The notes: generated by a model not told the origin, from the sequence alone. A stretch of DNA of 64,000 nucleotides from Clostridia bacterium (GCA_017441005.1 JAFSAM010000077.1:6443-70442); one strand, 5' to 3'; counted from the first letter of the stretch, positions 23,878 to 64,000 are shown. A program made the numbers and translations.

Positions 23878-24023
23878 AGTTTTTCTCCCGAAATATAGGG
23901 TGCATCCCGTTATGATGATATTGTAGCATAAACGGTATGATAAATCACCGCTTATGTAATAAAGGTATTATGACCGAAATGTAAAATATAGGTTTCAAAC
24001 ATAAAAAAGGGAACAAATAAAAA

Positions 24024-24412
24024 GGTCTGTACAAACCATTATGATTTGCACAGACCCGTAGATTTAAGTTTTCTTTGCCTGTTTTTTCAAAAAATAAAGC
24101 GCACAAATATAGAGGTCTGCACAGACTTTTGTAGTTTGTACAGACCAATAGATTCAAGTTTTCTTTGCCTGTTTTTTCAAAAAATAAAGCGCACAAATAT
24201 AGAGGTCTGCACAGACTTTTATAGTCTGCACAGACCAAAAGATTCAAGTTTTCTTTGCCTACTTATTCAAAAATAAGGCGCACAAATATAGAGGTCTGTA
24301 CAGACTTTTATAGTCTGCACAGACCCATAGATTCAAGTTTTCTTTGCCTACTTTCTTTCCGAAAAAGAAAGTAGGCGAAAAAGAAAGTAGGCGAAAAAGA
24401 AAGTAGGGAAAG
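24024..24412 (+). repeat. tandem array: four ~90-bp units (starts 24024, 24114, 24204, 24293) plus three 16-bp units (24361-24408)
   Basis: Each 90-bp unit carries a ~33-nt hairpin, for example GGTCTGCACAGAC-TTTTATA-GTCTGCACAGACC, followed by the conserved 'agattcaagttttctttgcct...aaaaataaagcgcacaaatatagag'. The array ends in the hairpin CCTACTTTCTTT-CCGAAA-AAGAAAGTAGG and GAAAAAGAAAGTAGGC x3. Confidence 0.9.
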
Positions 24413-29214: not shown

Positions 29215-29247
29215 AAAGTGAATTCAAGAAAATAATCGAAAAACAAT

Positions 29248-29295
29248 GGACACATCATAAGGGTAGATCCCCAAAATGATGTGTCCGTATTTTTT
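29248..29295 (+). terminator. H-family conserved hairpin, copy H1
   Basis: GGACACATCAT (29248-58), loop, ATGATGTGTCC (29276-86), then a T-rich tract. Confidence 0.85.
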
Positions 29296-43489: not shown

Positions 43490-43522
43490 GATATAAAACA
43501 CCTTTCTCTTAACACAAAAAAC

Positions 43523-43568
43523 GGACACATCATAATGGAAAACAACCAAAATGACGTGTCCTTTTTTT
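43523..43568 (+). terminator. H-family conserved hairpin, copy H2
   Basis: GGACACATCAT (43523-33), loop, ATGACGTGTCC (43551-61), then T7. Confidence 0.85.
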
Positions 43569-43688
43569 GTTAATTAATTTATAGCCGGTTTTCTTCACTT
43601 ACTTTCTTTCGAAGAAAGGTTGGCAAAGAACTTGAATAAGAAGTTTTTGCTTTTTCACAATTACTTGATAATTATAATTTTGAAAGAT

Positions 43689-46008: not shown

Positions 46009-46872
46009 ATGAAGATAAAAAAAGTATGCGTTATCGGCGGCGGACTTATGGGACGTCAGATTGCACTTAATACTGCGATTTATTCTTACGAGGTTACTTT
46101 AACCGATTCCAACCCGGACGTACATGATGCGGTTGCAAAATGGGAAGAAGAGTATTTGGCGGGCAGAATTGCAAAGGGAAGAATGACTGAGGAACAGGTT
46201 GCGGGAATCAAGAGTCGTTTTCATATAGTTTCGACGCTGGAGGAGGCTGCAAAAGACGCAGACCTTGTTATTGAAGCGATAGTTGAAGTCGAAGACATAA
46301 AAAGAGAGCTTTTCCGAAAGCTGTCGGCACTTACAAGAGAAGATACGATTATTGCAACAAATTCAAGCCGTATGTGCGCATCGTTGTTTAAGGATGAAGT
46401 AAAGAACCCCGCAAGATTTGCAAATCTTCACTATTTCAATCCTGCGCTTGTAATGAAGCTGACCGAGGTAGTTCAAGGTGAACATTGCAGCTCGGAAACG
46501 GCAGAAACACTTATGGAGTTTTCAAGGTCAACGGGAAAGACCCCCGTTTTGTTAAAGCGTGAGATTGAGGGCTTTATCGCAAACAGACTGCTAAACGCCT
46601 TAAAAAACGAAGCTCGTTATCTTGTCGAAAACGGTTATTGTACCATTGAGGACGTTGATACTGCCAGTGAAAACGGACTTGGACATCCTATGGGTCCATT
46701 TAGACTGGAGGACCTTACCGGTATCGACCTTACGTATAACATTATGATGAGGACATACGAAAAAACCGGTGAAAAGCCTATAGGATTCGAACTGGTGAAA
46801 AGCTATTATGATAAAGGTTTTTACGGTAAAAAGAATGGCAGAGGATATTACGATTACTCACAAAAAAAATAA
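46009..46872 (+). CDS. 3-hydroxyacyl-CoA (3-hydroxybutyryl-CoA) dehydrogenase family protein
   Basis: 'VCVIGGGLMGRQIA' NAD fold, 'TNSS' and 'HYFNPA' motifs. 287 aa. Confidence 0.85.
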   Translation: MKIKKVCVIGGGLMGRQIALNTAIYSYEVTLTDSNPDVHDAVAKWEEEYLAGRIAKGRMTEEQVAGIKSRFHIVSTLEEAAKDADLVIEAIVEVEDIKRELFRKLSALTREDTIIATNSSRMCASLFKDEVKNPARFANLHYFNPALVMKLTEVVQGEHCSSETAETLMEFSRSTGKTPVLLKREIEGFIANRLLNALKNEARYLVENGYCTIEDVDTASENGLGHPMGPFRLEDLTGIDLTYNIMMRTYEKTGEKPIGFELVKSYYDKGFYGKKNGRGYYDYSQKK

Positions 46873-46996
46873 AAATGAGATCAGCCGCTAATGCTACAGC
46901 TCTGTCGGCGCATATTTTATAACGATATGTACTAAAAATCGAGCAGAGATTTTATCTGACATTGTAGGGGGCGACGTCCTCGACGCCCCGATAAAA

Positions 46997-47362
46997 GTGA
47001 AGTTATTACCTTACGGAGAAATTGCGGAAAAGTATATAAAACAATTAAATAAATTTTACGAGAATATTTCTGTTGAAAAATACGTAATAATGCCGGATCA
47101 CATACATATATTAATCGTCGTAAAAAAAGAAAAAGATACAATACAAAAGGGTGGGGCGTCGAGGACGTCGCCCCCTACAAGACAACATTCGTCTGTGTCA
47201 AAAAATGTTTCTACATTTAAAAGGTTTTGTAACAAGGAATATGGAGAAAATATATGGCAAGAATCTTTTTTTGACCATATAATCAGAAGTAACGAAGACT
47301 ATGAAGAACACTTAAAATACATTCACGAAAACCCGATAAAATGGTATTATAAGAATAAATAA
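46997..47362 (+). CDS. RAYT/IS200-like Y1 (HUH) transposase, N-terminally disrupted
   Basis: 'VIMPDHIHILI' HUH motif and C-terminal 'YIHENPIKW' (candidate catalytic Tyr). The same frame reads '...GAYFITICTKNRAEILSDIVGGDVLDAP...' upstream back to an in-frame TAA at 46889. The only nearby ATG (46875) is in another frame. Confidence 0.7.
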   Translation: MKLLPYGEIAEKYIKQLNKFYENISVEKYVIMPDHIHILIVVKKEKDTIQKGGASRTSPPTRQHSSVSKNVSTFKRFCNKEYGENIWQESFFDHIIRSNEDYEEHLKYIHENPIKWYYKNK

Positions 47363-47367
47363 AAAAA

Positions 47368-47420
47368 GGACACATCATTTTCGGATAAACTCCGAAATGA
47401 TGTGTCCTTAGTTTTTATTG
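47368..47420 (+). terminator. H-family conserved hairpin, copy H3
   Basis: GGACACATCAT (47368-78), loop 'tttcggataaactccgaa', ATGATGTGTCC (47397-407). It lies 6 nt after the RAYT stop codon. Confidence 0.85.
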
Positions 47421-49785: not shown

Positions 49786-49920
49786 TCAAGTTTTTAGCAC
49801 GCCTTTTTTCAAAAAGCGACCCGCGTCCCCTTTATTTGCTTGCGCTTTTCGAAACGCAACGGCAACCGCTACAGTCATACCGACCATAGGATTGTTACCT
49901 GCGCCGATGAGAGCTATCAT
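49786..49920 (-). CDS. 44-aa small hydrophobic/basic protein (candidate small membrane peptide)
   Basis: MIALIGAGNNPMVGMTVAVAVAFRKAQANKGDAGRFLKKGVLKT. It starts 7 nt after the DUF4926-like stop. A second copy at 63623-63725 differs mostly at third codon positions. Confidence 0.45.
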   Translation of the reverse strand: MIALIGAGNNPMVGMTVAVAVAFRKAQANKGDAGRFLKKGVLKT

Positions 49921-50519: not shown

Positions 50520-50889
50520 ATTAACATATGGTATATCCTCTAATATACAATGACAATAAGTGTGGTGCGGGTGCTTGGGATGAGATTCTTTTGAGAACCA
50601 ACAATTATGCAGTTTTAGACATTCAGAGCAATGATTAGGGCTTAAATTTCTGTGAATCCATTTTACCCACTGCGGTTCTGTGGGGATTGAGTCCTCCGTT
50701 TTACTGCATTAACAACTTGCGATAGATAATTCATTTGTATTCCTTTCTAATAGTATCATACTTTATTGAAATTGTAAATATATGAATTGCGGTTGTTTCG
50801 AAAGGAATTATAGCATAATTTTAAGTTATTCTCTCCCCATTGTTAAGTGAAAAAAGTTTATTCTTATTGGAGCAGATAGAAAAAATATT

Positions 50890-50940
50890 GGACACATCAA
50901 GGATGAAAACTCCCAAATGATGTGTCCAACTTTTTTATTG
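50890..50940 (+). terminator. H-family conserved hairpin, copy H5
   Basis: GGACACATCA (50890-99), loop, ATGATGTGTCC (50917-27), then AACTTTTTT. The repeat shared with H4 extends to about 50985. Confidence 0.85.
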
Positions 50941-51027
50941 TTTTTATTCAAGTTTTTAGCACGCCTTTTTTTCAAAAAGCGACCGTAGTTTCTTTTACTC
51001 TTTCGACATCGCAGTGCTTTTTTTCTT

Positions 51028-53367: not shown

Positions 53368-53676
53368 TACTCCTTAATTTTTATTGTATTTTTACTGTGA
53401 GAGCTCTATACTAAATGCGAAAACTCTGCATAAAGCTATAAGTCAGCCTGTTTGTTCGTATGTAATCGTCGTTGAGGAAGTTTTTACTTCCGCCGAAAGA
53501 CGTACATCATACCAATATCATAAATATTTCCATCAAAAATATGTCAAGGAATCTTTCCGGAATGTTATCACGAACGTGTTTCGATTATAACATTTATCTT
53601 TTTATTTGTCAAATATCCAACACTTCTTTTGGTCAACGTATTCACTTTTACATTATATTACTCCCCCCAAAAAATA

Positions 53677-53725
53677 TAGACACATCATGAGGATAAACTC
53701 CAAAATGATGTGTCTATATTTTTTT
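53677..53725 (+). terminator. H-family conserved hairpin, copy H6
   Basis: TAGACACATCAT (53677-88), loop 'gaggataaactccaaa', ATGATGTGTCTA (53705-16), then T-rich sequence. Confidence 0.85.
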
Positions 53726-53790
53726 GTCAATTTTGTTTATTGGAGCGATTTGTGTGCGAATGAACAATAGTGTATAATTCCGGAATATGT

Positions 53791-54876
53791 TTAAATGTCT
53801 TTCGACTGACCTTGATCTATCCAGATTCCGGTGCCGTCGGACATAATTGCGAATTGATAGGCTTCTACAAGGCTTTGAATAGTGCGGCTTAAAGCTTTTC
53901 GTTCTATAAAAAGCTCGTAGGGAGGATTCTTGAGTTCCTCCAAAATATCTTTTTGTCTCAGGTGGTGTTTGCTGTCGGATTTCGTTTTTAAAATTGAATA
54001 TACAAAGAGTGGCAAAAGACTTTTTTGTGAATTGCCTTTTTTGGGACGGTAGAGCTCGTCGAGCTCTTCTTCAGTCATCTGTTCTTCTCGTTCAATTTGA
54101 AGGCGTCTGGTGTTGCTGACAGTTTCTCGTGATATTCCATAACGGTTTAAGAGCATTGCGGCGACAAGCTGTTTTGCCTCTGTGAAAACTACTGCATACG
54201 GGGCATTTAGGAGCATCAAGCGATATAGCCTTCTGGAACGAATGATCACATCGTATGCGCAAATTTTTCCGCCGATACGAGCTTGTGCCTGTGAATAGAG
54301 GTCAGAGACGGATTTGTGATAGTATTCTTTTTCATCGTCGGATACTGAAACATTTAGGTAGTCTGACAAAAAAGAACGTTCAAAATCATCGAGAGGTGCT
54401 CCTTTCGAGAGGTTTCCGGCAATTACCTTGACGTATTCGGATACGTCCATTCTGTCTTCTATATCTTGAAGCCTTTCTATGTCAAATTTATCATACGAAA
54501 AAGGTCGAAGATAATCGTTCCAAAACTTAAAAAACGTATCGTCATTAACTTGTTTTTTGAAATCTTCAGTTGATTGAATATCGAGCAGATCCCCAAGCTT
54601 TTCCGCAAAAAAACGAATAATTGCAACATGAGCCTGCGCTTCGTCTATGAAGTATTCATAGTCTGCAAGATTCCAATTTACCAAGCAACGGTAGCTGTCA
54701 TTTTCGTCTGTATGCAGGTCTTCGCTGAAGCCTTGTCCCGGGGCGTCATAGTGCCAACCGGGAATATATAAAACTCCGTCTTCGTCGGTACGCTCAAACA
54801 TTAGAGTAATGAAATCTTTAAGCTCTAATTCGGGATCATCAAAGGAATAAAATGTTTTGTTTGCTATGTTTGACAT
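53791..54876 (-). CDS. retron-associated protein of unknown function (candidate effector), acidic N-terminal ~280 aa + C-terminal wHTH-like region
   Basis: MSNIANKTFYSFDDPELELKDF... AAAGGAGA RBS 6 nt before the ATG at 54876. C-terminal 'LRQKDILEELKNPPYELFIERKALSRTIQSLVEAYQFAIMSDGTGIWI' resembles an HTH_11-type winged helix. No nuclease, ATPase, TIR or TM motif was recognised. Confidence 0.7.
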   Translation of the reverse strand: MSNIANKTFYSFDDPELELKDFITLMFERTDEDGVLYIPGWHYDAPGQGFSEDLHTDENDSYRCLVNWNLADYEYFIDEAQAHVAIIRFFAEKLGDLLDIQSTEDFKKQVNDDTFFKFWNDYLRPFSYDKFDIERLQDIEDRMDVSEYVKVIAGNLSKGAPLDDFERSFLSDYLNVSVSDDEKEYYHKSVSDLYSQAQARIGGKICAYDVIIRSRRLYRLMLLNAPYAVVFTEAKQLVAAMLLNRYGISRETVSNTRRLQIEREEQMTEEELDELYRPKKGNSQKSLLPLFVYSILKTKSDSKHHLRQKDILEELKNPPYELFIERKALSRTIQSLVEAYQFAIMSDGTGIWIDQGQSKDI

Positions 54877-54951
54877 ATTGTTTCTCCTTTTCATATATTA
54901 CAAAAAGAGTATATCAACTTAGTTGCACCATATTAGGTACAACCACTTTTT

Positions 54952-54981
54952 ATTATATAGGATTCGATAATAAAAAGTCAA
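54952..54981 (-). promoter_or_regulatory. candidate sigma-A promoter for the retron-associated gene
   Basis: On the minus strand: TTGACT (54981-54976, overlapping the RT stop codon), 18 nt, TATAAT (54957-54952). An imperfect palindrome GTTGCACC-ATATTA-GGTACAAC at 54922-54943 follows it. Confidence 0.5.
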
Positions 54982-56030
54982 CTATTACAATGGGTATCAA
55001 AAGATTTAGACAAATTTTCTTTAGCTGCTTGAAACCATTTATTTTCAGGTTCAATTTGTAAAATGTAGTTAACTTTTCCGATAAGGTGACATTTATATCG
55101 AGCGGTATCCCATTTTCCATTTTCGAAAAAGTCATTCTTTTTTCCGTATTTCATACTGTCTTCAAGACCGAATTTTAATGCGTAATAAACATCTTGGCGA
55201 AGTGTTTTTTTATAGTCTGACGGAATAGACACTTTTTTGTTAACGCATAATCCTGTTACTGTTTGGCGCGATGAAAAGAATATGTATTTTGTTTTTTTCT
55301 TATTTACCTGAAATCCCCATCGGTTGAGCATATCTTCAATTTTGTAAGAAAGAACAACAAGAGGATAGTCGGCGGAAAAGGTTAAATCATCACAGTACCG
55401 TGTGTAGACTATGCCGCGTTCGTTACACCAAAATCCTATGTGCTCGTCAAAAGATTTCATCACAAGATTGGATAATGCGGGAGATGTAGGAGCGCCTTGT
55501 GGCAATACACCGTCTTTTGTGCAAAGGGAAGTAAGAATAACCCCGCATTGAGTTGGGAAAAGAGTGGAGGGGAAAGCTGAAGATAGAACTTGATGAAAGG
55601 TAATAGAACTAAAAAAGTCGGAAATATCCATTTTTAATAAATAAAGATGATTGATATGAGGAGCAGCATTATCTTTAAGGTTTTTTCCTTTTTTATATGC
55701 CATAGCATAAGGCGATGTTTCTGCTTTTGATATGATGTTTTGAAGTATTTTCTTTTGGACTTTTTTTAGTTTTCCGTTGGGGGAATGAATGATCCTGAAG
55801 CCGTTGCTTCTTTTGGGGATTCGTATTTCTTTATAACAAGAGTCTGCTTTCTTTGATAAAGCAAAGAGTTCTCCTGTTGTTGTGCCGAGAGTGTCGGCAA
55901 GAGATTGCAGTTCTTTTGATATGCCTTTATTGCTTTTTTGTTTTTTTGAAGAATGTGAATTGGCAAATATTCCAATGAGTTTTTTTACAAAGACTTGAAT
56001 GTTTCTGATAATGTTTGATGCTTTTTTCAT
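54978..56030 (-). CDS. retron-type reverse transcriptase
   Basis: 'IRIPKRSNGFRIIHSP', 'NAAPH' (retron NAxxH), 'LPQGAPTSPALSN', 'RYCDDLTFS' (YxDD) and 'RQTVTGLCVN' (retron VTG motif). A GGAGGA RBS precedes the ATG at 56030. Confidence 0.9.
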   Translation of the reverse strand: MKKASNIIRNIQVFVKKLIGIFANSHSSKKQKSNKGISKELQSLADTLGTTTGELFALSKKADSCYKEIRIPKRSNGFRIIHSPNGKLKKVQKKILQNIISKAETSPYAMAYKKGKNLKDNAAPHINHLYLLKMDISDFFSSITFHQVLSSAFPSTLFPTQCGVILTSLCTKDGVLPQGAPTSPALSNLVMKSFDEHIGFWCNERGIVYTRYCDDLTFSADYPLVVLSYKIEDMLNRWGFQVNKKKTKYIFFSSRQTVTGLCVNKKVSIPSDYKKTLRQDVYYALKFGLEDSMKYGKKNDFFENGKWDTARYKCHLIGKVNYILQIEPENKWFQAAKENLSKSFDTHCNS

Positions 56031-56059
56031 TGGTTTTCCTCCATTTTGGTAACAAAAAC

Positions 56060-56243
56060 CCCTTTGCAGTACAAAATGACTTGGGAAAAATCGACGAGAG
56101 TCTGAGTTACCGGAGGTAACTCAGCGGCTCGATGGAGATTTTTTTCAAGCACGCGGCTATGCCGCACACGAGGGAATAAACACCGATCAACGACTCGCTG
56201 ACCGTCTTGAAACTTTAATCAAGATGTACTCTACTGCAAAGGG
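56060..56243 (-). ncRNA. retron msr-msd non-coding RNA template
   Basis: 12-bp inverted repeats CCCTTTGCAGTA (minus strand; plus 56232-56243) and TACTGCAAAGGG (minus strand; plus 56060-56071) lie 160 nt apart. A G directly follows a1 (plus coordinate 56231), as in the Ec86 'TTA-G' context. Three short msr-like hairpins are followed by a long msd-like stem CTGAGTTAC/GTAACTCAG (56102-56124). The region ends 29 nt upstream of the RT ATG. Confidence 0.8.
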
Positions 56244-56329
56244 ATTCTTATAATGTTGTTTGTATTTTAACAAAATCAATGTACCGAATTCGGTTCATTG
56301 ATTGTTAGAAGTAAAAAAAACAAAAAATA

Positions 56330-56379
56330 TTGGACACATCATAAGGATAAACTCCAAAATGATGTGTCCAACTTTTTTG
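56330..56379 (+). terminator. H-family conserved hairpin, copy H7
   Basis: TTGGACACATCAT (56330-42), loop 'aaggataaactccaaa', ATGATGTGTCCAA (56359-71), then T6. Confidence 0.85.
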
Positions 56380-56383
56380 TTAT

Positions 56384-58237
56384 TTAATTAGTTGCAAGTT
56401 TTCTTTGCTTACTTTCTTTCCTTAAAAAAAGTAGGTTTCCTATTGAGCATTTTGCGTTGCCGTAAAGGTGGGGGAGCGAGTCTGCGCCTACTGTGGAGAG
56501 AACGTCAAATCTAACATATCTTGCTTGTGTGTTTTCAAATGTAACGACGGTTTCACCGCCAAAAGTGCGAAAAATACCGTCTGCTTTTTTTTCGTACTTT
56601 GTTCCGTCAATGCTCGTATATATGGCAAAGGCGGTTGGGAGAGTTGCTGTGTAATCATCTTCACGCCATTTTGTGCGAAGTTCGGGTTGGGTTTTCGGAG
56701 GCTTTTCAACCGGTCTTGGATAGTACCCAATTGCACTGACCGTATGCAATTGTTGCATATCGATTACAATTGATGCTTTGGTGTTCTTTCCTTCCCATAC
56801 GTTGTATACGTCTCCTTCAATGGCGGCAGAGGCATCTTCGCCTGTGAGTATATCAACTGCTGTTGCGTTGCTTAGGTCTATGGCGGATAGTTTTGATTCG
56901 GTATATTTGTCAAATTTACGTCCCGTCCATACGGGCATCGACCAAGTTCTTTTGCCCTCACCGTCTACAAAACGCAGATAGAAATACCGTGCGGTATCTG
57001 ACTGTATTTCAAAATCAAAACTTGAAGAAATATTTGTTGTTTTCAGCAAAGTCTTTCCACCGTCGGATATAACGGCACATTCAACGGGAACTGTCATTTC
57101 ATCTTTTGTAAAATATGAAAGTTCAACGTGGAATCGGTAGGTGTTTGCATAATCAAGGTCGGCGGGAGCGGCTTTTCCATTTACGGTATATCGAAGTTTT
57201 ACGTTTCCGCTTTCGGTTGCATAAAACCTATTATTGCGGAGAGCATCGATAAATGCTTCTCGACTCTTTTCTCGAGCGAGTAAAACCGTTTTCGCTCTCA
57301 TAAAACCGTATCCTCTTTCAGGGCCGTGGGAGTCTGTCGATGCGACTGAACTTACACGAAAGCCGCTATCCAGTGCAAGTGAATAGTTAAATTCATGCAT
57401 AAGATTTTCCCCGATAGCTCTGCCGTTAATCGTTTCGATTCCTCGGACAGCATGTATCATTTCGGGAGTATTGTTTTTATGAAAACAGAAATTCCAGATT
57501 CCCTTATGTCCGATTCCCACTGTACAAGGATGGGCAAAAATTGCGATGGGGGCGGGAGAAGTGCTTATACATTCAAAGAACGGTTTCCAAGAATCTGCAG
57601 AAATATATCCATCTGTGTTGAAAGTAACGATTTCTCCGGAATTTTTGTGAAGAACACCAAAACGGTCGTTTTCCAAAACCGTTACCTCCGATTCTGCTCC
57701 CGGAAGCATAATCACAACGTTCGGCTCTGCTTTTTCGATTTCTACAAAATTGCGGAAGAACTCTGTATCGTTGAGTACGATTGCATGGTCGGACATAACG
57801 CAGAAATCAAGAAGACCTTCGTTTTTGATTTGTTTGATAAAATCACGCTGGAACTCTGACGTGCGGTTGATAAATTCTTCGTGATTATGAATTTTGGTAG
57901 TGTGATTATGAAGGTCGCCTATATAGTAGTTTAATTTATCGTCAGAACTTGCTTTTTTGTTCTCGGTTACCGTTACGAAGCAGGTGTATTGAACACCGCC
58001 CATCGTTGCACTTACGGTTGCATTTCCAACCTTTTTCAATATAAGCAGAACACCGTTGTTGAAGCACATCGGTTCATTACCAGAGAAGGAGTGAAGTGAG
58101 ACTGCATCTGAATCGGATTCCCATTTTATATCTGCTTTGGCCAACTCATTATGTTTTTCGCTGTCAAAACCTATGTGGAGCGGTAACACATCTCCTACAA
58201 ACGATGTTATGTGATTTTGGGATAATGAAACAGTCAT
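56384..58237 (-). CDS. PHP/CehA-like metallo-hydrolase with N-terminal Ig-like region and C-terminal discoidin (F5/8 type C)-like domain
   Basis: MTVSLSQNHITSF... after a TAGGAGGA RBS at the ATG 58237. Motifs 'GDLHNHT' and 'ASTDSHG'. The C-terminal ~150 aa are discoidin-like. The last 12 codons (RKESKQRKLATN) are encoded by a dispersed repeat module. Confidence 0.7.
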   Translation of the reverse strand: MTVSLSQNHITSFVGDVLPLHIGFDSEKHNELAKADIKWESDSDAVSLHSFSGNEPMCFNNGVLLILKKVGNATVSATMGGVQYTCFVTVTENKKASSDDKLNYYIGDLHNHTTKIHNHEEFINRTSEFQRDFIKQIKNEGLLDFCVMSDHAIVLNDTEFFRNFVEIEKAEPNVVIMLPGAESEVTVLENDRFGVLHKNSGEIVTFNTDGYISADSWKPFFECISTSPAPIAIFAHPCTVGIGHKGIWNFCFHKNNTPEMIHAVRGIETINGRAIGENLMHEFNYSLALDSGFRVSSVASTDSHGPERGYGFMRAKTVLLAREKSREAFIDALRNNRFYATESGNVKLRYTVNGKAAPADLDYANTYRFHVELSYFTKDEMTVPVECAVISDGGKTLLKTTNISSSFDFEIQSDTARYFYLRFVDGEGKRTWSMPVWTGRKFDKYTESKLSAIDLSNATAVDILTGEDASAAIEGDVYNVWEGKNTKASIVIDMQQLHTVSAIGYYPRPVEKPPKTQPELRTKWREDDYTATLPTAFAIYTSIDGTKYEKKADGIFRTFGGETVVTFENTQARYVRFDVLSTVGADSLPHLYGNAKCSIGNLLFLRKESKQRKLATN

Positions 58238-58354
58238 AAAAATCCTCCTATGCAAATCTGTCTGTATTTTATCACAATGTATGGTTTTTGTAAAGGGAAA
58301 AAGATAGGGCAAGCACGCTGTTGTCGAGTATGTAATAACACTTTGCAAGATAAC

Positions 58355-58462
58355 ATTTTTGCGTTGTTTTCCTTTTAAACCGAGGCTTTTCATCAACTTT
58401 TGAACTGTCTTGTGGTTAAGAACATAGCCTTTGTATGATATCAATCGTATAAACGTATACAA
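58355..58462 (-). pseudogene. IS3-family transposase (OrfB) remnant
   Basis: 'SYKGYVLNHKTVQKLMKSLGLKGKQRK' matches the conserved 'G..VNHKRV.RLM.ELGL..R.R' segment of IS3-family OrfB. Only about 36 codons remain, and they are read in frame into the long track ORF 56384-58462. Confidence 0.5.
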
Positions 58463-58536
58463 AATAATGTGTTGACAAAAAAGTATAAATCGTTTATACT
58501 TTTTTAAATTAATTAAAAAACGGAGGCTGTTGTTTA

Positions 58537-59193
58537 ATGATAAACATTTTTTTGATTTTTGGTGACAGCTATTCTGCCCACAAAAGCTATATACCTAATG
58601 ACCATGATTTTTATTATTGCGATGAAGGCGGCGATTGGGGGGAGCCGGTTACAAAAATGTATGCAGACCAAATGTGGTGGGGACATCTCATTAAAAATAC
58701 TGATGCCAAGCTTATACGTAACGATAGTTGGTCGGGGGCTGCGATAGGATATACCGGTTATTCAGGAGATTGTTCGGAAACATCATCTTTTATTTGCAGG
58801 TATCATAAACTTGCAGAAACAGGTTTTTTTAATGAAAATCATATTGATACGATACTTATTTTTGGGGGAACAAACGATAGTTGGTGTCAAGCGCCTATAG
58901 GCGAAGAAAAATATTCTGATTGGGAAAAAGAAGATCTTTTTTCGGCATTACCCGCTATTTGTTATTTTATTGATGTACTGAAAAAAGATCACCCGGACAA
59001 GAGAATCATATTTTTGATAAACTGTGATTCGATAAAAACTGAAATAATTGAATGTATAAAAAATGCTTCAAAGCGGATAGGAATTGAGTTTGTAGAATTA
59101 AAAAATATTGATAAACTCACAAAACATCCGACGGTGACGGGTATGGAGCAAATATATTGTCAGCTGATGGCATATTTAAAAAGCCAAAATTGA
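58537..59193 (+). CDS. SGNH/GDSL hydrolase family protein
   Basis: 'IFLIFGDSYS' block I and 'FGGTNDS' block III. No signal peptide. Confidence 0.75.
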   Translation: MINIFLIFGDSYSAHKSYIPNDHDFYYCDEGGDWGEPVTKMYADQMWWGHLIKNTDAKLIRNDSWSGAAIGYTGYSGDCSETSSFICRYHKLAETGFFNENHIDTILIFGGTNDSWCQAPIGEEKYSDWEKEDLFSALPAICYFIDVLKKDHPDKRIIFLINCDSIKTEIIECIKNASKRIGIEFVELKNIDKLTKHPTVTGMEQIYCQLMAYLKSQN

Positions 59194-59376
59194 CAGTTAT
59201 ATAAGCTGAATGGCAAAATAGTTCAAAAACTCAAATTAATGCGGCAAAATAGTTTATTGAAAAAAACTTCGATTTAGATTACTATAAAGCAGGTATGCTT
59301 GATATTGTGCAGAAACACAACACAATGATTTAATAGTATGCCAACAGTAATAATTATTGGTGTATGGAGAAGTGTT

Positions 59377-61212
59377 ATGAAGAAATTTTTATCATTTTTT
59401 CTGATCTTTGTATTGATGTTAAGTTTGGGTTGCAATCTTATTTCCTGTCAAAAGGTAGAAAAACAAAACTCCGGTAATGATAATGAAACCGAATCAAAAA
59501 ATAACACAAGTGAAGAAAAAGAACCGACGGTATTTCTCGATAGTCTTACTCTTGATGACGAAAGATACACGATAGGAGAATTTAAAAAGAACGTTTTTGA
59601 ATATAAAGTATCCCTCCCGGACGGAAGACCGACCGTACCCAGAGTAAATGCAGCTGCCCCCGATGGCTGTGTAGTTAAGATAAGTCAGGCAGCTATTCCC
59701 GATAGCGCAACCTCCGGTAAGGCTACGGTTACAGTAACAAACGCTAAGGGGGAGAGCTCAGCTTATACGGTTATATTTGAGCGTAGTATAGAGAACGGGT
59801 TTGTCCTGCAGTACGATGACAGATGGGTGTTTAATACGGGGTATCACAACGACACGGGGGATGGTTATGTTTACGAATCAAGCAATCCCGACATAATTTC
59901 TATTGACGAAAACGGTATTTTGAGGGCAAACAAGGTTTCTGATGAGGAGGTTACTCTTACCGCCAAGCAGGGAACTGCGATAAAGGCGACTTTGGTTGTT
60001 GATAGGGTAGAAAAGGCTCATATAAATTTGTTTTTTATAACCGGTCAATCCAACGGTCAGGGACATTATGATTCATCAAACTGGGGCACCGGAGTTGCGC
60101 ACCTGATTTCTCACGAAGAACAACTTGAAAACGTAGAGGAAATAGGTGGGGAAGGAAGAGTATACAGCTATGATGTGTTCCCACGTCCCGAAAATAAAGA
60201 AGTTTACAGTCTTAAGGGAAAGATTTACGATATGGCAACCGTATCAAAGCAGGGGCATCAAAACTCTCTCGGTAAGACGTATTATGAGCTTTCGGGTGAA
60301 AAGGTAGTGTTTTTACAGTCATCTTATGGTGGCGCTCCCATTGAATCATGGTTAGATATAAAAAGACATAAAGACATTGTGGGAAGCTATGACCAGCACT
60401 ATTTTTATGCCGAAACACGTTCTGCATACAACAAGCTTGTAAAGTTGCTTGAAGAAAATTATGAAATTGTTTGCACCGCAAATTTCTGGTGCCAAGGTGA
60501 AACCGCAATGACTGCGATTTACGACAGAAATCTTACCACTTACCTTCACCCAAGTAATGATGGGTTCAAAACAAGCAATTTAATGACCGATGAAAAATAT
60601 TACAATTACTTTATGATGATGCACGAAGATATGAAAGAGGACTTCGGGCTTGAATATAATTGTATTATGTTTGTAAGATCAAGGGGAGGCGTAAGCAAGA
60701 GTGCCGTTGTTCCTATTATTTCAGCTCAGTTCGCGCTTTGCAATAACAACGACGATATAATTGTTGCTACAAGAACGTTTGCTGAAATAGGTACGATGTA
60801 TGGAAGCGGTGACAAAAATAAAGAGGGGTACGGCTTTATCGGAACGGATGATACCCACTATAACCAGATAGGCTATAATTATCACGGAAAAGAGGCGGCA
60901 ACAAACGCATTTAATGCTATTTTTGGAGTTGCGACAAATACCTGCGAGGGCGTGGAAATCATAGCCAATAACGGCATAGACAGACTTGATTCTACAAAGA
61001 TTATTACCTTGAAAGCGGGAAAAGAACAAAGAATAGGCGCACTTTGTTTGCCGCATTATATTAATGAAAGTATTATGTGGACATCAAGTGATGAGAGCGT
61101 GGCGACCGTAGATAAATTCGGTAAGATTACGGCAGTGGGCGCAGGTAACGCTGTAATTACTGCAACGGCTTCAAGCGGAAAGATGCAATCCGTTAACGTC
61201 AAAGTTAATTAA
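59377..61212 (+). CDS. lipoprotein: SASA-family (sialate O-acetylesterase-like) carbohydrate esterase with Big_2 domains
   Basis: Lipobox 'MLSLGC'. 'FFITGQSNGQGH' (GQSN motif). Big_2-like 'YESSNPDIISIDENGILRA' and C-terminal 'WTSSDESVATVDKFGKITAVGAGNAVITA'. Confidence 0.7.
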   Translation: MKKFLSFFLIFVLMLSLGCNLISCQKVEKQNSGNDNETESKNNTSEEKEPTVFLDSLTLDDERYTIGEFKKNVFEYKVSLPDGRPTVPRVNAAAPDGCVVKISQAAIPDSATSGKATVTVTNAKGESSAYTVIFERSIENGFVLQYDDRWVFNTGYHNDTGDGYVYESSNPDIISIDENGILRANKVSDEEVTLTAKQGTAIKATLVVDRVEKAHINLFFITGQSNGQGHYDSSNWGTGVAHLISHEEQLENVEEIGGEGRVYSYDVFPRPENKEVYSLKGKIYDMATVSKQGHQNSLGKTYYELSGEKVVFLQSSYGGAPIESWLDIKRHKDIVGSYDQHYFYAETRSAYNKLVKLLEENYEIVCTANFWCQGETAMTAIYDRNLTTYLHPSNDGFKTSNLMTDEKYYNYFMMMHEDMKEDFGLEYNCIMFVRSRGGVSKSAVVPIISAQFALCNNNDDIIVATRTFAEIGTMYGSGDKNKEGYGFIGTDDTHYNQIGYNYHGKEAATNAFNAIFGVATNTCEGVEIIANNGIDRLDSTKIITLKAGKEQRIGALCLPHYINESIMWTSSDESVATVDKFGKITAVGAGNAVITATASSGKMQSVNVKVN

Positions 61213-61226
61213 TAGGAAATAGGAAT

Positions 61227-61272
61227 AAAGGACACATCATCAGGAAAAACCAAAATGATGTGTCCTTTTTTT
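61227..61272 (+). terminator. H-family conserved hairpin, copy H8
   Basis: AAAGGACACATCAT (61227-40), loop 'caggaaaaaccaaa', ATGATGTGTCCTTT, then T7. Confidence 0.85.
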
Positions 61273-61306
61273 GGGGGGATTCAACAGCGGTGTCCGATGG
61301 ACAAGT

Positions 61307-62092
61307 TTATTTTTTCATTAATTCGTTTTTCAGGTTTATCGGTGGAATGCCGAAAAAATCTTTAAATACCTTTGAAAAATAACCGTAGTTTTCATATCCC
61401 AAGCACAATGCTATTTCGGTTAATGACATAGCATCGTTCGTAAGCATATTTTTTGCGAGTGTGACTTTTTGCTTGTTGATAAACTCCGAAACCGTCATAC
61501 CGAGTTCTCTTTTGAAAAGCTTTGCAGTATATTCCTTTGTAACGTGCAGAAATTGGCTTATGTCAGAGAGCGACAAGGATTGTGTTATGTTGTCATTGAT
61601 ATATTTAATTGCATTTAAGACGTGAATGTTTTTTGTTGAATAATTCATAGAGTCGAACAGCTCGGCAAGCACGCAGTTAAAAAGATTCGGCAGGATTGTG
61701 TTGACTTTGCTGTTGCCATATGAGGGGGATGTCAGATGGTCAGCTGCTCTGTAATACGTGTACGGATATACCTCGAGCAGTTTTCTTATGGTTTGATTGA
61801 CTGCATTTTTGAAAAACAGATTTGATGGTATGTCGTTTCCTTTTGTGGTTGTGTAATTAAATATAACGTAGTGAGCTAATCCTTCGCTGGGAAACCTTTT
61901 TCTGACAGTTCCTGGTACCAGAAGCATAGCATCATTTGGGTGAAGAACAACCTCTTCCCCATTTACTATATAAGTTATTGTTCCTTCCAAAACAAAGGTG
62001 AGATGATAAAAGTTTATTTTTGCGGTTTCAATCTTTTTGTGTTTGTATCCCTTGTGGTTGCAAAAATAAGAAAAATTTTTTACGGTATACAC
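61307..62092 (-). CDS. AraC family transcriptional regulator (paralog of 43689-44477; divergent from P-family paralog 4)
   Basis: Aligns along its length with the 43689 regulator: 'INFYHLTFVLEGTITYIVNGEEVVL', 'AHYVIFNY', 'GYENYGYFSKVFKDFFGIPP'. GTG start at 62092, 8 nt after GGAGAA, by analogy with the paralog. The track start is 62179. Confidence 0.75.
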   Translation of the reverse strand: MYTVKNFSYFCNHKGYKHKKIETAKINFYHLTFVLEGTITYIVNGEEVVLHPNDAMLLVPGTVRKRFPSEGLAHYVIFNYTTTKGNDIPSNLFFKNAVNQTIRKLLEVYPYTYYRAADHLTSPSYGNSKVNTILPNLFNCVLAELFDSMNYSTKNIHVLNAIKYINDNITQSLSLSDISQFLHVTKEYTAKLFKRELGMTVSEFINKQKVTLAKNMLTNDAMSLTEIALCLGYENYGYFSKVFKDFFGIPPINLKNELMKK

Positions 62093-62271
62093 GATACGGT
62101 TTCTCCACAGATTAATATAGTATAAAAAACTGTAACCAACAGAATAATCTGGTTTATTGAAAAAGAGCTTTTCATACACTATTATATAGTAAAGATAAAA
62201 ATATTGTCAAGTATAAAATAATGAATGCCTTTTGAGTTAAACGTAAGTTTTTATAGCGGGAGGGGAATTAA

Positions 62272-63516
62272 ATGAAAAAGGTGTATTTTCTTTTATTGAT
62301 GCTTATATTTTTGTTTCTTGTTGTATCTTGTGGCAAAAAAGAAGAAAATTCAAAGGAGGAGATTACGGTGAAGGAGGAAATAAAAGAAACGGTTTTGGAG
62401 ACTGATAAAGAGGAAATCGATCTTCCTGTTGATCCCGATGATTATTTTAAATTGGTGACGTTTGAGCTTCCCGATGATTTCAGAAAAGCCGCGGTTGAGT
62501 ATATGCGTAAGCAGTCAAGTATAGCGTGGACTCCCGAAAAAACCTTTAAAACAGGAAGGCAAAACGAGAATTGGGGCTTTGAGCTGACATACGAAGAGGG
62601 AAAGGTTTATACAGGTCTTTTGTATTCCACAAGAAAGGCATCTGTTGACGAATTTCAGCTTACTCTCGCAAAAAATGGAGGCAAATACACCTCGGAAAAG
62701 TATGATTATAGCTTTCCCTTGGGGGTAGAATGCAACACGTCCATTACACATTCATTGCAGCAGTTTACAAATGCGGTGACAGGCAAAGCAGAAACACTTA
62801 TGCCCAGTTATGCGGACTTGTTCGGTGGCGTAGTAGTGGGCGAGTATACTGTTCCCGATGGGGTGCGCCAAACAGCAAAGATTATATCGGCAAATACTCC
62901 CGAGGTGATGTATCAGGCATATTCGCAGTTGGATGTGGGTGATATTATAATCACGAAAGATGAGGATAAAAAAGTAAACCATTTGAGAATGATTGTGGAA
63001 AAGCCGGTTGTTGTTACGACAGCGTCAGGTAAGATCAATCCAAACAGAAGCTATGTGGTTACTATAGAGCAGACAGATACTTTTGATAAAACAAGAACAG
63101 ACGGTGTAAATACAACGTGGTGGGTAGACCATCAATATACATTATCAAAGCTTCTTGAAAAGAACTACGTTCCCGTTTCGGTTGAGGCATACAGAACCGG
63201 AGTGGGGGTTGTTCCGTATATAGGGCTTGACACCGAGATTACGGCAGGAATACTCGAAAAAGGCACTCTTACGGGTACAATAACATCAAATTATCCTATC
63301 AGATTTATTCATATCAATCTTTATAAAAAAGACGGTACCCTTGTGAGCAACGTGGTCTATAACGGCGAATTTGATACGAGAAAAGTCAATTTGAGAAAAT
63401 ATGCTTCCGATATATTTACCGACGGTATGACCGAGGGAGAATATACTCTTGAAGTATTGGCGGGGGTAAGCCGCGGTTATGCGGAAATAGCGAAAGTAAA
63501 CTTTATATACGGGTAA
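62272..63516 (+). CDS. P-family lipoprotein, paralog 4
   Basis: Lipobox 'FLVVSCG'. Blocks 'SIAWTPEKTF', 'GVECNTSITHSLQQ', 'VNHLRMIVE', 'SYVVTIEQTDTFD' and 'TTWWVDHQYTL'. Confidence 0.8.
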   Translation: MKKVYFLLLMLIFLFLVVSCGKKEENSKEEITVKEEIKETVLETDKEEIDLPVDPDDYFKLVTFELPDDFRKAAVEYMRKQSSIAWTPEKTFKTGRQNENWGFELTYEEGKVYTGLLYSTRKASVDEFQLTLAKNGGKYTSEKYDYSFPLGVECNTSITHSLQQFTNAVTGKAETLMPSYADLFGGVVVGEYTVPDGVRQTAKIISANTPEVMYQAYSQLDVGDIIITKDEDKKVNHLRMIVEKPVVVTTASGKINPNRSYVVTIEQTDTFDKTRTDGVNTTWWVDHQYTLSKLLEKNYVPVSVEAYRTGVGVVPYIGLDTEITAGILEKGTLTGTITSNYPIRFIHINLYKKDGTLVSNVVYNGEFDTRKVNLRKYASDIFTDGMTEGEYTLEVLAGVSRGYAEIAKVNFIYG

Positions 63517-63539
63517 ATGTATTATAAGGATAAAAAATA

Positions 63540-63590
63540 TTGGACACATCATGGATAAAAACTCCAAAATGATGTGTCCAACTTTTTTTG
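63540..63590 (+). terminator. H-family conserved hairpin, copy H9
   Basis: TTGGACACATCAT, loop 'ggataaaaactccaaa', ATGATGTGTCCAA (63569-81), then T7. Confidence 0.85.
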
Positions 63591-63622
63591 AAAAAAATAA
63601 GGATATGGGGGAACCCATATCC

Positions 63623-63725
63623 TTAAAAATATGCTTTATTTGTTTGCGCTTTTCGAAACGCAACTGCAACAGCAACAGTCATACTTAGCCTGCGGGTTGT
63701 TGCCTGCAACCACGAGACCCATCAT
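63623..63725 (-). pseudogene. second copy of the small hydrophobic ORF, split by a 1-nt frameshift
   Basis: The ATG at 63725 gives MMGLVVAGNNPQAKY..., then changes frame. The conserved C-terminal half MTVAVAVAFRKAQTNKAYF* is readable from the ATG at 63682. A terminator hairpin GGATATGGG-GGA-ACCCATATCC (63601-63622) follows. Confidence 0.4.
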
Positions 63726-63726
63726 T

Positions 63727-64000
63727 TCAACTGCGGAAATTATAAAAATATTCCGAGGGCGAGCATCCGATATGCTTTTTGAATTCGGTGGAAAAATATT
63801 TATAATCCGTGTAGCCCGACATTAACGCGACTTCTTTGAGAGAATAATATTTTGTGGAAATCAATTCTGTGGCATACCGTATTCGGAGAAAAACAATATA
63901 TTTTTGAGGTGATTTTCCGTATTCTTTTTTAAAAAGCTTTCGGAAATATACTTCACTTACAAACGATTGATTTGCAATTTCACGTATAGACAAATTCGGC
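63727..64000 (-). CDS. AraC family transcriptional regulator, C-terminal part (N-terminus beyond window end)
   Basis: 'EVYFRKLFKKEYGKSPQKY' and 'GYTDYKYFSTEFKKHIGCSPSEY' double-HTH motifs. The frame is open to the window edge. Confidence 0.75.
   Translation of the reverse strand, partial: PNLSIREIANQSFVSEVYFRKLFKKEYGKSPQKYIVFLRIRYATELISTKYYSLKEVALMSGYTDYKYFSTEFKKHIGCSPSEYFYNFRS

What the first reader, a model, noticed from the sequence alone, without database searches (positions are those of the whole stretch)
53677..56379. The retron module is exactly bracketed by two direct copies of the H hairpin
H6 (53677-53725) lies 66 nt beyond the partner gene stop. H7 (56330-56379) lies about 90 nt upstream of msr. 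Both have the near-identical loop 'ggataaactccaaa'. The 2.6-kb retron unit therefore looks like an insertion between duplicated hairpins, or into a hairpin-rich hotspot. The same pattern occurs around the toxin-like module at 49.7-51.0 kb.
Basis: seen in the sequence. Interest (0 to 1): 0.6.

Follow-up and report, generated by a model that had tools for sequence, protein, structure and literature searches.

The report
Retron in a hairpin-marked island pile-up
The two hairpins around this retron are real. They are two of 13 copies of a repeat left each time a small mobile island docked behind one conserved gut-Clostridia gene, so the retron is ordinary cargo in a known kind of island pile-up.

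Summary
H6 (53668-53724) and H7 (56322-56378) are about 90% identical 57-nt hairpin elements in direct orientation, and they bracket a complete retron.

They are not specific to the retron. The genome holds 13 copies. Twelve lie in one 42-kb stretch of the window's contig. The thirteenth lies at the end of another contig that probably adjoins it.

The array sits beside a conserved GGGtGRT-family gene. In related genomes the same hairpin lies 45-150 nt past that gene's stop. It is often followed about 20 nt later by a tyrosine integrase of one family, or by a stub of that integrase. Other relatives end the gene with unrelated terminators and have no hairpin.

Five of the nine window copies, H7 among them, keep pieces of the gene's last codons or of its stop-to-hairpin spacer.

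Best reading: each hairpin is the integrase-side end piece of a former island that docked in the 3' end of that gene. This is tandem accretion, and every integrase has since been lost from this genome.

H7 belongs to the retron cassette. H6 belongs to the next cassette.

Conspecific strains in metagenomes gain or lose neighbouring cassettes with junctions inside the hairpins. No retron-less allele was found.

The parts
53668..53724 (.). H6: a 57-nt hairpin element. It is a hairpin-only copy with no gene-tail remnant. It lies 66 nt past the retron partner's stop and upstream of the 545-aa gene's promoter.
56322..56378 (.). H7: a 57-nt hairpin element at the head of the retron cassette.
56379..56437 (-). 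Scar remnant attached to H7. It holds 50-67 nt of the sequence that lies between the GGGtGRT stop codon and the hairpin in relatives' live loci. It is 96% identical to the G007 locus and 91% to the G011 locus. It now supplies the 3' end of the 56384-58237 ORF.
   Evidence: D18
53791..54894 (-). Retron partner gene, 367 aa, with no recognised domain.
   Evidence: seen in 3 metatranscriptomes
54978..56030 (-). Retron reverse transcriptase, 350 aa.
   Evidence: Pfam RVT_1 at 1e-24; PADLOC RT_Ec107-like at 2.9e-113; NCBIfam retron_St85_RT at 238 bits
56058..56245 (-). msr-msd ncRNA region, bounded by the a1/a2 inverted repeats CCCTTTGCAGTA and TACTGCAAAGGG.
   Evidence: read; conserved in L150
49718..49921 (-). 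HP4 with a full scar: the motif GGCGCAGGTAAC (49894-49905), a copy of the last 23 codons of the GGGtGRT gene, a terminator and the hairpin.
   Evidence: (tblastn aa 305-330)
50880..50984 (-). HP5: hairpin plus a 47-nt spacer, together 93% identical to HP4.
63532..63731 (-). HP9 with a full scar: a diverged copy of the last ~28 codons of GGGtGRT, its terminator (63598-63625) and the hairpin. It is 94% identical to this genome's own gene end.
61220..61275 (.). HP8: a hairpin-only copy between two convergent genes.
47360..47416 (.). HP3: hairpin with a spacer remnant, 85% identical to the G002 live locus.
46874..47362 (+). A 5'-truncated RAYT / IS200-like Y1 HUH gene with one internal TAA. It abuts the 5' foot of HP3 and is absent in the strains of runs X7 and X13.
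43516..43572 (.). HP2: hairpin with a spacer remnant.
29238..29294 (.). HP1: the leftmost copy, a hairpin-only copy between two convergent genes.

Best explanation
H6 and H7 are two of 13 copies of a 57-nt palindromic element, called H here. H is the integrase-proximal end piece of a family of small tyrosine-integrase islands. These islands dock in the 3' end of the conserved GGGtGRT-family gene of gut Clostridia.

An intact island reads, in the gene's direction: replacement copy of the last ~23 codons, stop, small terminator, H, about 20 nt, integrase gene, cargo. Each new docking pushes older islands outward and leaves one H, with or without the gene tail, at the head of each.

In this genome all integrases have been lost. 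What remains is a co-oriented row of H-headed cargo modules:
- pilus and sortase genes;
- sugar-use genes;
- a DUF6883 mini-module;
- a TIM-barrel/MBL plus PHP pair;
- the retron.

The retron cassette is H7, promoter, msr-msd, RT and partner. H6 heads the next, older cassette and, lying 66 nt past the partner gene, is placed to end retron transcripts.

With its A-run, long stem and T-run, H is built like a two-way intrinsic terminator. It most likely insulates each island from read-through out of the GGGtGRT gene. After accretion, recombination between H copies adds, removes and reorders cassettes among strains.

Shown here: the repeat family, its confinement to this locus, the gene-tail scars, the cognate integrase family in relatives, and strain polymorphisms with junctions inside H.

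Inferred: that integrases made this particular array, that H terminates transcription, and which enzyme or process acts at H.
For: **The family is confined to one locus.**
- nhmmer finds 12 copies on contig C77 at 35.7-77.4 kb, one at the end of contig C24, and nothing else in 2.1 Mb.
- HP1 to HP10 share one orientation.

**The array abuts the GGGtGRT gene.**
- That gene matches Pfam PF14057 at 5.6e-192.
- Of 120 hairpin loci from other genomes, 59 hold that gene within 8 kb. The hairpin lies just past its stop in a fixed orientation.

**H is element-borne, not the gene's native terminator.**
- In an unbiased set of relatives' GGGtGRT loci, 9 genomes end the gene with unrelated terminators and have no H.
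- All 7 same-genus loci with a visible gene end have H, as do 3 other genera.

**A cognate integrase follows H in relatives.**
- A ~312-aa Phage_integrase protein starts about 20 nt after H in 9 loci. These proteins form one family, 50-87% identical to each other.
- N-terminal stubs of the same integrase lie next to H in G002, G007 and G010. G001 has a short match of unresolved completeness, and G037 a longer one.

**Scars in this genome.**
- HP4 and HP9 carry copies of the gene's last 23-28 codons plus a terminator. H7, HP2 and HP3 carry the stop-to-H spacer.
- The same C-terminal fragments beside extra hairpins recur in 8 other genomes.

**The retron is recent cargo.**
- The RT is absent from the other 11 species of the genus. 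The best family hit is 49% identical.
- The cassette's GC content is 37.6%, against 44.3% for the genome.

**H7 goes with the retron.** See (L150; runs X13 and X14).

**Strain junctions lie inside H.**
- 56348 joins 63559 in run X13 (side 165 nt, 30 nt shared).
- 61249 joins 63564 in runs X14 and X20 (sides 82 and 75 nt, 16 nt shared).
- 61265 joins 63652 in run X6.
- Depth falls to about zero exactly to the right of H7 in runs X5, X7, X13 and X15.

**The structure is under selection.** The outer pairs covary: 22, 22 and 14 double changes in 75 sequences. No shuffle out of 500 reached the observed covariation score.
Against: - No integrase or integrase stub survives anywhere in this genome's array. 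Integrase-made accretion is therefore inferred from relatives.
- H6, HP1 and HP8 are hairpin-only copies with no gene-tail remnant, and HP5 keeps only an HP4-like spacer. They need later deletions or a second way of spreading H.
- The strain junctions lie in H itself and share only 16-30 nt. They do not lie at the presumed crossover motif in the gene. This fits site-specific action on H, or hairpin-promoted slippage, at least as well as ordinary homologous recombination.
- RAYT (Y1 HUH) genes sit next to H in four species of the genus, and their role is open.
- No retron-less allele was found, so the retron's own arrival is not directly documented.
- Termination at H is untested. The RNA runs were too thin, and the simple terminator scan misses H because its loop is too long.
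- The invariance of the 9-bp core in the 120 loci is partly by construction, because those loci were fetched with that exact pattern.
Confidence: 0.75

Rival explanations
1. H is a REP-like element serviced by the RAYT (Y1 HUH single-strand transposase) genes in the array. The transposase cuts at H hairpins in single-stranded DNA and moves H-bounded cassettes, the retron among them, in an integron-like but HUH-driven way.
For: - RAYT genes with an intact HUH motif (PDHIHVLI) and a Tyr motif (RKYIHENP) are flanked by H in G000, G003 (twice), G007 and G011.
- NCBIfam REP_Tyr_transpos matches at 6.7e-20.
- A RAYT presence/absence polymorphism ends exactly at the 5' foot of HP3: 46874 joins 47366 or 47369 in runs X7 and X13, with sides of 93 and 106 nt.
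- The RAYT sequence is 30-40 times deeper than its flanks in two metagenomes.
- Strain junctions lie inside H with only 16-30 nt shared.
Against: - Only 2 of 120 H loci hold a RAYT within 8 kb.
- Twenty RAYT relatives in other genomes, 37-66% identical, have no H nearby. Several carry a different upstream hairpin, CGGCAGAG.
- H is not dispersed through the genome as REPs are.
- H has no GTAG or CGTC head.
- The gene-tail scars and the cognate tyrosine integrase explain the origin of H without RAYT.
- The NCBIfam score of 71 bits is below the cut-off of 80.
Confidence: 0.12
2. H copies are plain two-way intrinsic terminators. They look alike only because operons and their terminators were duplicated locally. 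No mobile element is involved, and the bracket around the retron is incidental.
For: - H has an A-run, a 12-20-bp stem and a T-run on both strands.
- Copies sit at gene 3' ends, several between convergent genes.
- Paralogous lipoprotein and AraC modules exist in the region (D3, D12 and D13).
Against: - The same hairpin sits at the same conserved gene across several families of Clostridia, and it is absent from many genomes that have that gene.
- It is followed by one integrase family or its stubs.
- Copies carry fragments of the GGGtGRT gene end.
- The GGGtGRT gene already has its own terminator between its stop and H.
- The cassettes between H copies are unrelated to each other.
Confidence: 0.05
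3. The array is an integron-like cassette array and H is an attC-type site recombined by an integron integrase.
For: - H is 57-60 nt long, an imperfect palindrome with a variable centre and conserved unpaired bases.
- Copies have one orientation along the array.
- Cassettes hold 1-3 genes.
- Some copies carry GTTGGAC...GTCCAAC arms.
Against: - The genome has no integron integrase. The only TIGR02249 hit scores 37.7 bits against a cut-off of 265, and it lies on another contig.
- The GTTRRRY and RYYYAAC boxes are in the wrong order, and those positions covary rather than being conserved.
- Cassettes carry their own promoters and lie on both strands.
- The integrase found beside H in relatives is an ordinary ~312-aa Phage_integrase protein. 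It matches the ordinary tyrosine integrase on C69 only weakly, at 22-31% identity. It was not scored against the IntI model.
Confidence: 0.02

Closest known systems
Tandem accretion of integrative elements and their integrase-less remnants (CIMEs) at the 3' end of a protein gene. Examples are ICESt1/ICESt3 at fda in Streptococcus thermophilus and composite SCC arrays at rlmH in staphylococci.
   Same: - The target is the 3' end of a conserved gene.
- Direct repeats that copy the gene's end bound each module.
- A cognate tyrosine integrase is present in some genomes and lost in others.
- Old elements stack behind new ones.
- Cargo differs between strains.
   Different: - The target gene (GGGtGRT, PF14057) returned no report as an integration site in my paper search, which gave 13 hits, mostly proteomics or microbiome surveys.
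- A conserved 57-nt hairpin travels with every island, sits right upstream of the integrase, and is itself a junction of later rearrangements.
- The array here has lost every integrase.
- RAYT genes have settled beside the hairpins.
REP/REPIN elements with RAYT (TnpA-REP) transposases, also called 'REPtrons' (PMC2817692, PMC3116915, PMC6006769, PMC8266576)
   Same: - A short palindromic intergenic repeat.
- RAYT-like Y1 HUH genes flanked by copies of it.
- The repeat sits at gene ends and can act as a terminator.
   Different: - Only 13 copies, all at one locus, rather than tens to hundreds dispersed.
- No GTAG or CGTC head.
- The RAYT link does not hold outside this genus.
- The repeat's origin is traceable to an integrase island's end.
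Integron cassette arrays (attC sites plus IntI)
   Same: An array of small cargo modules, defence genes included, each with one co-oriented hairpin-forming site of about 60 nt.
   Different: - No IntI and no attI or Pc.
- The box order is wrong.
- Cassettes have their own promoters and mixed gene orientation.
- The sites carry remnants of a chromosomal gene's end.
Retrons carried as cargo of mobile islands and defence hotspots. Retrons are well known to sit in prophages and variable islands. (General knowledge.)
   Same: A complete retron (ncRNA, RT, partner gene) with lower GC than the genome, lying in a variable island and absent from sister species.
   Different: - The carrier here is a stripped, integrase-less cassette in an accretion array.
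- The partner protein has no recognised effector domain.

Membership tests
Tandem accretion of site-specific islands at a gene's 3' end | Direct repeats that copy the target gene's 3' end bound the modules. | tested here: met
   HP4 carries the last 23 codons plus GGCGCAGGTAAC. HP9 carries the last ~28 codons plus a terminator. H7, HP2 and HP3 carry the stop-to-H spacer.
Tandem accretion of site-specific islands at a gene's 3' end | A cognate site-specific recombinase sits at the site in related genomes. | tested here: met
   One Phage_integrase family, 50-87% identical, starts about 20 nt after H in 9 loci. Stubs of it occur in G002, G007 and G010.
Tandem accretion of site-specific islands at a gene's 3' end | A recombinase or its remnant lies in this genome's array. 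| tested here: not met
   phmmer and tblastn found none on C77 at 30-77 kb or in the hairpin flanks.
Tandem accretion of site-specific islands at a gene's 3' end | Strains of the same species with and without a given module, with the junction at the repeat. | tested here: inconclusive
   Met for the neighbours: the 7.2-kb segment between H7 and HP9 (run X13) and the 2.3-kb HP8-HP9 module (runs X14, X20, X6). Not met for the retron itself, because no retron-less allele appeared in 16 runs.
Tandem accretion of site-specific islands at a gene's 3' end | Crossover at a defined core inside the target gene. | not testable with these tools
   The motif GGCGCAGGTAAC lies at the start of the HP4 tail. 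The strain junctions observed lie in H, not at this motif.
REP/RAYT system | The RAYT gene is flanked by the repeat. | tested here: met
   G000 has HP11-RAYT-HP12-RAYT-HP13. G003 (twice), G007 and G011 show the same.
REP/RAYT system | The repeat is dispersed in many copies through intergenic regions of the genome. | tested here: not met
   There are 13 copies, all at one locus. Copies are clustered on one contig in most relatives that carry them.
REP/RAYT system | The pairing of repeat and RAYT holds across genomes. | tested here: not met
   Only 2 of 120 hairpin loci have a RAYT. Twenty RAYT relatives have no H nearby.
Integron | An IntI-type integrase is present. | tested here: not met
   TIGR02249: best hit 37.7 bits against a cut-off of 265, on another contig.
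Integron | attC with conserved RYYYAAC ... GTTRRRY boxes in that order. | tested here: not met
   The order is reversed, and those positions covary instead of being conserved.
Intrinsic (two-way) terminator | A stable stem-loop followed by a U-run on either strand. | tested here: met
   -18.9 to -20.9 kcal/mol on both strands, flanked by an A-run and a T-run.
Intrinsic (two-way) terminator | Transcripts end at the element. | tested here: inconclusive
   Three metatranscriptomes cover only parts of the partner gene, at depth 2-4.
Retron | A retron-clade RT with an adjacent ncRNA bounded by a1/a2 repeats, plus an accessory gene. | tested here: met
   The a1/a2 repeats CCCTTTGCAGTA and TACTGCAAAGGG were read and are conserved in L150.

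The most novel reading that the evidence does not exclude
H is not just a scar. It may be a working secondary recombination site. The island integrase acting in trans, or the RAYT enzymes parked beside it, would recognise the conserved 9-bp stem core. They would exchange, insert or delete single H-headed cassettes such as the retron. That would give gut Clostridia an integron-like cassette shuffler built from island ends. The junctions inside H that share only 16-30 nt, the covarying stem around a fixed core, and the 7.2-kb H-bounded segment that separates the retron from its gene tail in this genome are all compatible with this reading.
Probability: 0.17. Interest if true: 0.75.

Novelty: new member of a known kind. 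Interest (0 to 1): 0.4.

Why it matters
**Boundaries of the retron cassette.** The result explains how a complete retron, and other accessory modules, came to sit in a tidy hairpin-punctuated row in an uncultured gut Clostridia genome. It sets the cassette's real limits: from H7 to the partner gene's stop. H6 is not part of it. That matters for anyone who wants to clone or test this retron.

**A new address for a known process.** The locus adds to the picture of the GGGtGRT gene end as a common docking site for small islands across gut and rumen Clostridia. I found no report of this target gene as an integration site.

**An annotation marker.** The 57-nt hairpin is a handy marker for finding such cargo in metagenomes.

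**The open question.** What cuts and joins inside the hairpin is unsolved, and this is the only part that could turn out to be more than ordinary genome plasticity.

Tried and rejected
1. **Integron reading.** Rejected. The genome has no IntI, the box order is wrong, and the cassettes carry their own promoters.

2. **H as the RAYT's own REP, moving cassettes.** This was my working idea. I downgraded it after three results. Only 2 of 120 hairpin loci held a RAYT. RAYT relatives elsewhere had other hairpins. An integrase family turned up beside H.

3. **H as the ancestral terminator of GGGtGRT.** I held this after and rejected it. Nine relatives end the gene with unrelated terminators, and the gene has its own terminator before H.

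4. **Empty-site search.**
   - Exact-protein look-up of the left neighbour found nothing on record.
   - A metagenome scan found only a 58%-identical relative.
   - Genus searches showed that the neighbours are variable cargo too.

5. **Short-sided joints in read laying.** I did not use joints with a side under 30 nt, such as 53727 to 56323 in run X7. Contigs from other organisms cross-map on the hairpin.

6. **An apparent inversion.** A loose end in run X5 at 56369 suggested an inversion. I rejected it as the contig of HP11 mapping onto H7.

7. **Other retrons in the family.** None of 11 other retron loci (RT up to 49% identical) has H within 1.5 kb. H is therefore a property of the locus, not of retrons.

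8. **Rfam.** At gathering threshold, only a tRNA was found in the window.

9. **RNA 3' ends at H.** The data were too thin.
Full report
**1. The observation**

The 36-nt core GACACATCATNAGGATAAACTCCAAAATGATGTGTC occurs twice in the window, at 53679-53714 and 56333-56368. It has no mismatch outside the N position, and no match is expected by chance. The loop word GGATAAACTCCAAA is exact only at these two places.

With their A- and T-runs the elements span 53668-53724 (H6) and 56322-56378 (H7). They are 90% identical over 61 nt. They fold into long interrupted hairpins of about -19 to -21 kcal/mol on either strand, with z-scores near -8.5 to -9.

H6 ends 66 nt from the partner gene's stop. H7 begins about 80-90 nt from the msr a1 repeat.

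The stretch between them is a complete retron:
- The RT lies at 54978-56030 on the minus strand. It matches PADLOC RT_Ec107-like at 2.9e-113 and NCBIfam retron_St85_RT at 238 bits.
- The ncRNA region carries a1/a2 repeats at about 56058-56245.
- The partner gene encodes 367 aa with no known domain.

**2. The hairpins are not about the retron**

The family has 13 copies in the 2.1-Mb, 83-contig genome. Twelve lie on contig C77 between 35.7 and 77.4 kb. Nine of these are in the window, at 29249, 43524, 47369, 49729, 50891, 53679, 56333, 61231 and 63543. The thirteenth lies at the end of contig C24. That contig breaks in the same RAYT repeat as C77 and very likely adjoins it.

The ten copies to the left of a conserved operon share one orientation. 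The three on its other side are inverted.

Every stretch between copies holds unrelated cargo:
- pilin and sortase genes;
- AraC regulator plus lipoprotein pairs;
- a TIM-barrel gene;
- a DUF6883 mini-module;
- a TIM-barrel/MBL plus PHP pair;
- the retron;
- an F5/8 / GDSL / SASA group;
- a GH10 plus EamA pair.

**3. Relatives**

The organism is an uncultured gut or rumen Clostridia bacterium; the matching records are named Acutalibacteraceae, Oscillospiraceae and the like. The same hairpin occurs in 10 of the 11 other species of the genus and in a few other genera. In most of these genomes the copies are clustered on one contig.

In the fetched loci the clusters lie beside the same conserved operon. 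It encodes a 332-aa GGGtGRT-family protein (PF14057, 5.6e-192), a 238-aa protein and a ClpP-like protein. The cargo between hairpins differs from species to species. Some cassettes recur in new company:
- The 82-aa/DUF6883 module appears in G005, G007 and G010.
- The 263-aa TIM-barrel gene appears in G008 and G011.
- Each is bounded by hairpins.

The retron RT is absent from all other species of the genus. The nearest relative in 301 genomes of the family is 49% identical. The left neighbour gene is also absent from the genus, and the right neighbour has only a 43%-identical relative elsewhere in G011.

**4. What the hairpin is**

Of 120 hairpin loci fetched from other genomes, 59 hold the GGGtGRT gene within 8 kb. 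The hairpin lies a few tens of bases past the stop, in a fixed orientation. Eight of the 120 loci also show extra hairpins next to C-terminal fragments of that gene.

I first read this as the gene's ancestral terminator. An unbiased sample refuted that:
- Nine related genomes end the gene with unrelated ordinary terminators and have no H.
- All seven same-genus loci with a visible gene end have H, as do three other genera.
- Where H is present, the gene often has its own small terminator before H.

What follows H in many genomes is a ~312-aa tyrosine recombinase. It matches Pfam Phage_integrase at 4e-28 to 3.5e-32, and its start codon lies about 20 nt after the hairpin's T-run. The nine examples found form one family, 50-87% identical to each other.

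In the genus, G002, G007 and G010 keep 30-65-aa N-terminal stubs of this integrase right beside H copies. G001 has a short match of unresolved completeness, and G037 (another family) has a longer one.

H is therefore carried by a family of integrase islands. It sits between the island's replacement copy of the gene's end and its integrase gene.

**5. Scars in this genome**

I compared the right flanks of the window's H copies with relatives' live loci.
- HP4 carries the motif GGCGCAGGTAAC (49894-49905) and a copy of the last 23 codons.
- HP9 carries about 28 codons plus the terminator. It is 94% identical to this genome's own gene end.
- H7 keeps 50-67 nt of the stop-to-H spacer (window 56379-56437). 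This is 96% identical to G007's live locus, and it now forms the 3' end of the neighbouring ORF.
- HP2 and HP3 keep spacer remnants.
- H6, HP1 and HP8 are hairpin-only copies. HP5 keeps only an HP4-like spacer.

No integrase or stub is left in the array.

This is the anatomy of tandem accretion at a gene's 3' end, followed by loss of the recombinases. Earlier notes of this scan on other genomes (for example e1-3110045, e1-2814292 and e1-4744849) reached the same reading for this gene. I treated them as leads and re-derived the integrase link, the stubs and the tails here.

**6. Which hairpin belongs to the retron**

A retron locus 84% identical at the DNA level, from another metagenome (L150), is homologous from inside the hairpin (window 56365) to the partner's stop (53793) and no further.
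- Upstream it has a decayed H preceded by a gene tail and terminator.
- Downstream no H follows within the 123 nt before the contig ends.

In two samples from different studies, contigs join the retron's upstream region through one hairpin to a gene-tail unit. In run X13 the joint is 56348 to 63559, with a 165-nt side and 30 nt shared. In run X14 it is 56378 to 63652, with a 72-nt side.

So the retron cassette is (gene tail +) H7, promoter, msr-msd, RT and partner. H6 heads the next cassette, and a perfect sigma-70-type promoter for the 545-aa gene follows it.

The bracket is real, but it is not a target duplication made by the retron.

**7. The hairpins are live junctions**

Among conspecific strains (at least 95% identity), depth falls to about zero exactly to the right of H7 in runs X5, X7, X13 and X15. 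The retron and the left-hand cassettes stay covered.

Joints with long sides lie inside hairpins:
- H7 to HP9 in run X13;
- HP8 to HP9 in runs X14 and X20 (sides 82 and 75 nt, only 16 nt shared);
- HP8 to the HP9 tail in run X6.

I ignored joints with sides under 30 nt, because contigs from other organisms cross-map on the hairpin.

A second sample (L152) has the G000 arrangement at 99.6% identity. None of the 16 runs laid shows a retron-less allele.

**8. Structure**

In 75 copies the pairs just outside the core covary: 22, 22 and 14 double changes. The three pairs of the inner mini-stem show 7, 1 and 3 double changes, but only 66% of their cells form a pair. Overall, 89% of cells pair, against 25-42% for slid controls. 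No shuffle out of 500 reached the observed covariation score.

The 9-bp core GACACATCA/TGATGTGTC is invariant. This is partly by construction, because most of those loci were fetched with that pattern. HMM-found copies in relatives do show occasional core changes.

An A-run, a long stem and a T-run make a plausible two-way terminator. An element placed between a gene whose product appears in gut and rumen metaproteome studies and an integrase start would plausibly insulate the island. That function is inferred. RNA data were too thin to test it.

**9. RAYT**

IS200-like Y1 HUH genes lie beside H in G000 (two tandem copies plus one truncated copy), G003, G007 and G011. They match NCBIfam REP_Tyr_transpos at 6.7e-20, and their HUH and Tyr motifs are intact. 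Each has its stop codon about 9 nt from an H stem.

The truncated copy at 46874-47362 is absent in the strains of runs X7 and X13, with the junction at HP3's 5' foot. Its sequence is 30-40 times deeper than its flanks in two metagenomes.

Against a causal role:
- Only 2 of 120 hairpin loci hold a RAYT.
- Twenty RAYT relatives elsewhere have other hairpins nearby.

I read RAYT as a secondary settler that likes this hairpin. A role in cutting H is not excluded.

**10. Verdict**

The locus is a new member of a known kind: tandem accretion of integrase islands and their stripped remnants at the 3' end of a conserved gene. The target gene and the travelling hairpin are not, to my knowledge, described in the literature. 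The retron is ordinary cargo.

What remains unexplained is the agent that recombines inside the hairpin over 16-30 shared bases.

Noticed in passing
L002 4110-4114 (G000 contig C77 about 74,110; just beyond the window's right end): The GGGtGRT gene of this genome carries an in-frame TAA where relatives have GAA (…GKMLLSE*TECFC…). The docking-site gene may be a pseudogene here, or this may be an assembly error.
   Followed up: partly
window 46669-47335: The truncated RAYT sequence has contig depth 200 (run X7) and 151 (run X15), against about 5 for its flanks, at 95% identity or more. This Y1 transposase sequence is far more abundant in those gut communities than the strain itself, so it looks like an active, shared IS200-like element.
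   Followed up: partly
L002 6912-6935 and 7080-7100 (inside the RAYT gene, C77 76724-77275): Two inverted copies of GGGGAGGGGCTTGCTCCTCCC lie about 170 nt apart inside the RAYT coding region. The relative G011 differs around this stretch.
   Followed up: no
window 24000-24353 and 5730-5765: A second hairpin family (stem GGTCTGYACAGAC) forms four tandem 90-nt units. Similar CCCGACAGA hairpins lie near RAYT genes in other genera.
   Followed up: no
loci L153-L172 (RAYT genes of other genera): Several RAYT relatives are preceded within 20-50 nt by a conserved hairpin, AAAATCGGCAGAG…CTCTGCCGATTTT. This may be their own REP-type partner.
   Followed up: no
window 58355-58790: This 436-nt segment is replaced by 26 other bases in the strains of runs X6 and X16 (sides 255 and 146 nt). 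A nearby upstream extension of the F5/8 ORF has a weak IS3-type HTH_21 match.
   Followed up: no
It is not a gene of its own.
   Followed up: yes
window 53878-54981: Pieces of the retron partner gene appear in three gut metatranscriptomes at depth 2-4, so the gene is probably transcribed in vivo.
   Followed up: partly
G007:C37:29176-30162 (L193): The GGGtGRT protein of G007 is only 78% identical to the query, while six other species of the genus with a full-length copy are 97-100% identical. The gene may have been replaced by horizontal transfer, perhaps through island traffic at its end.
   Followed up: no
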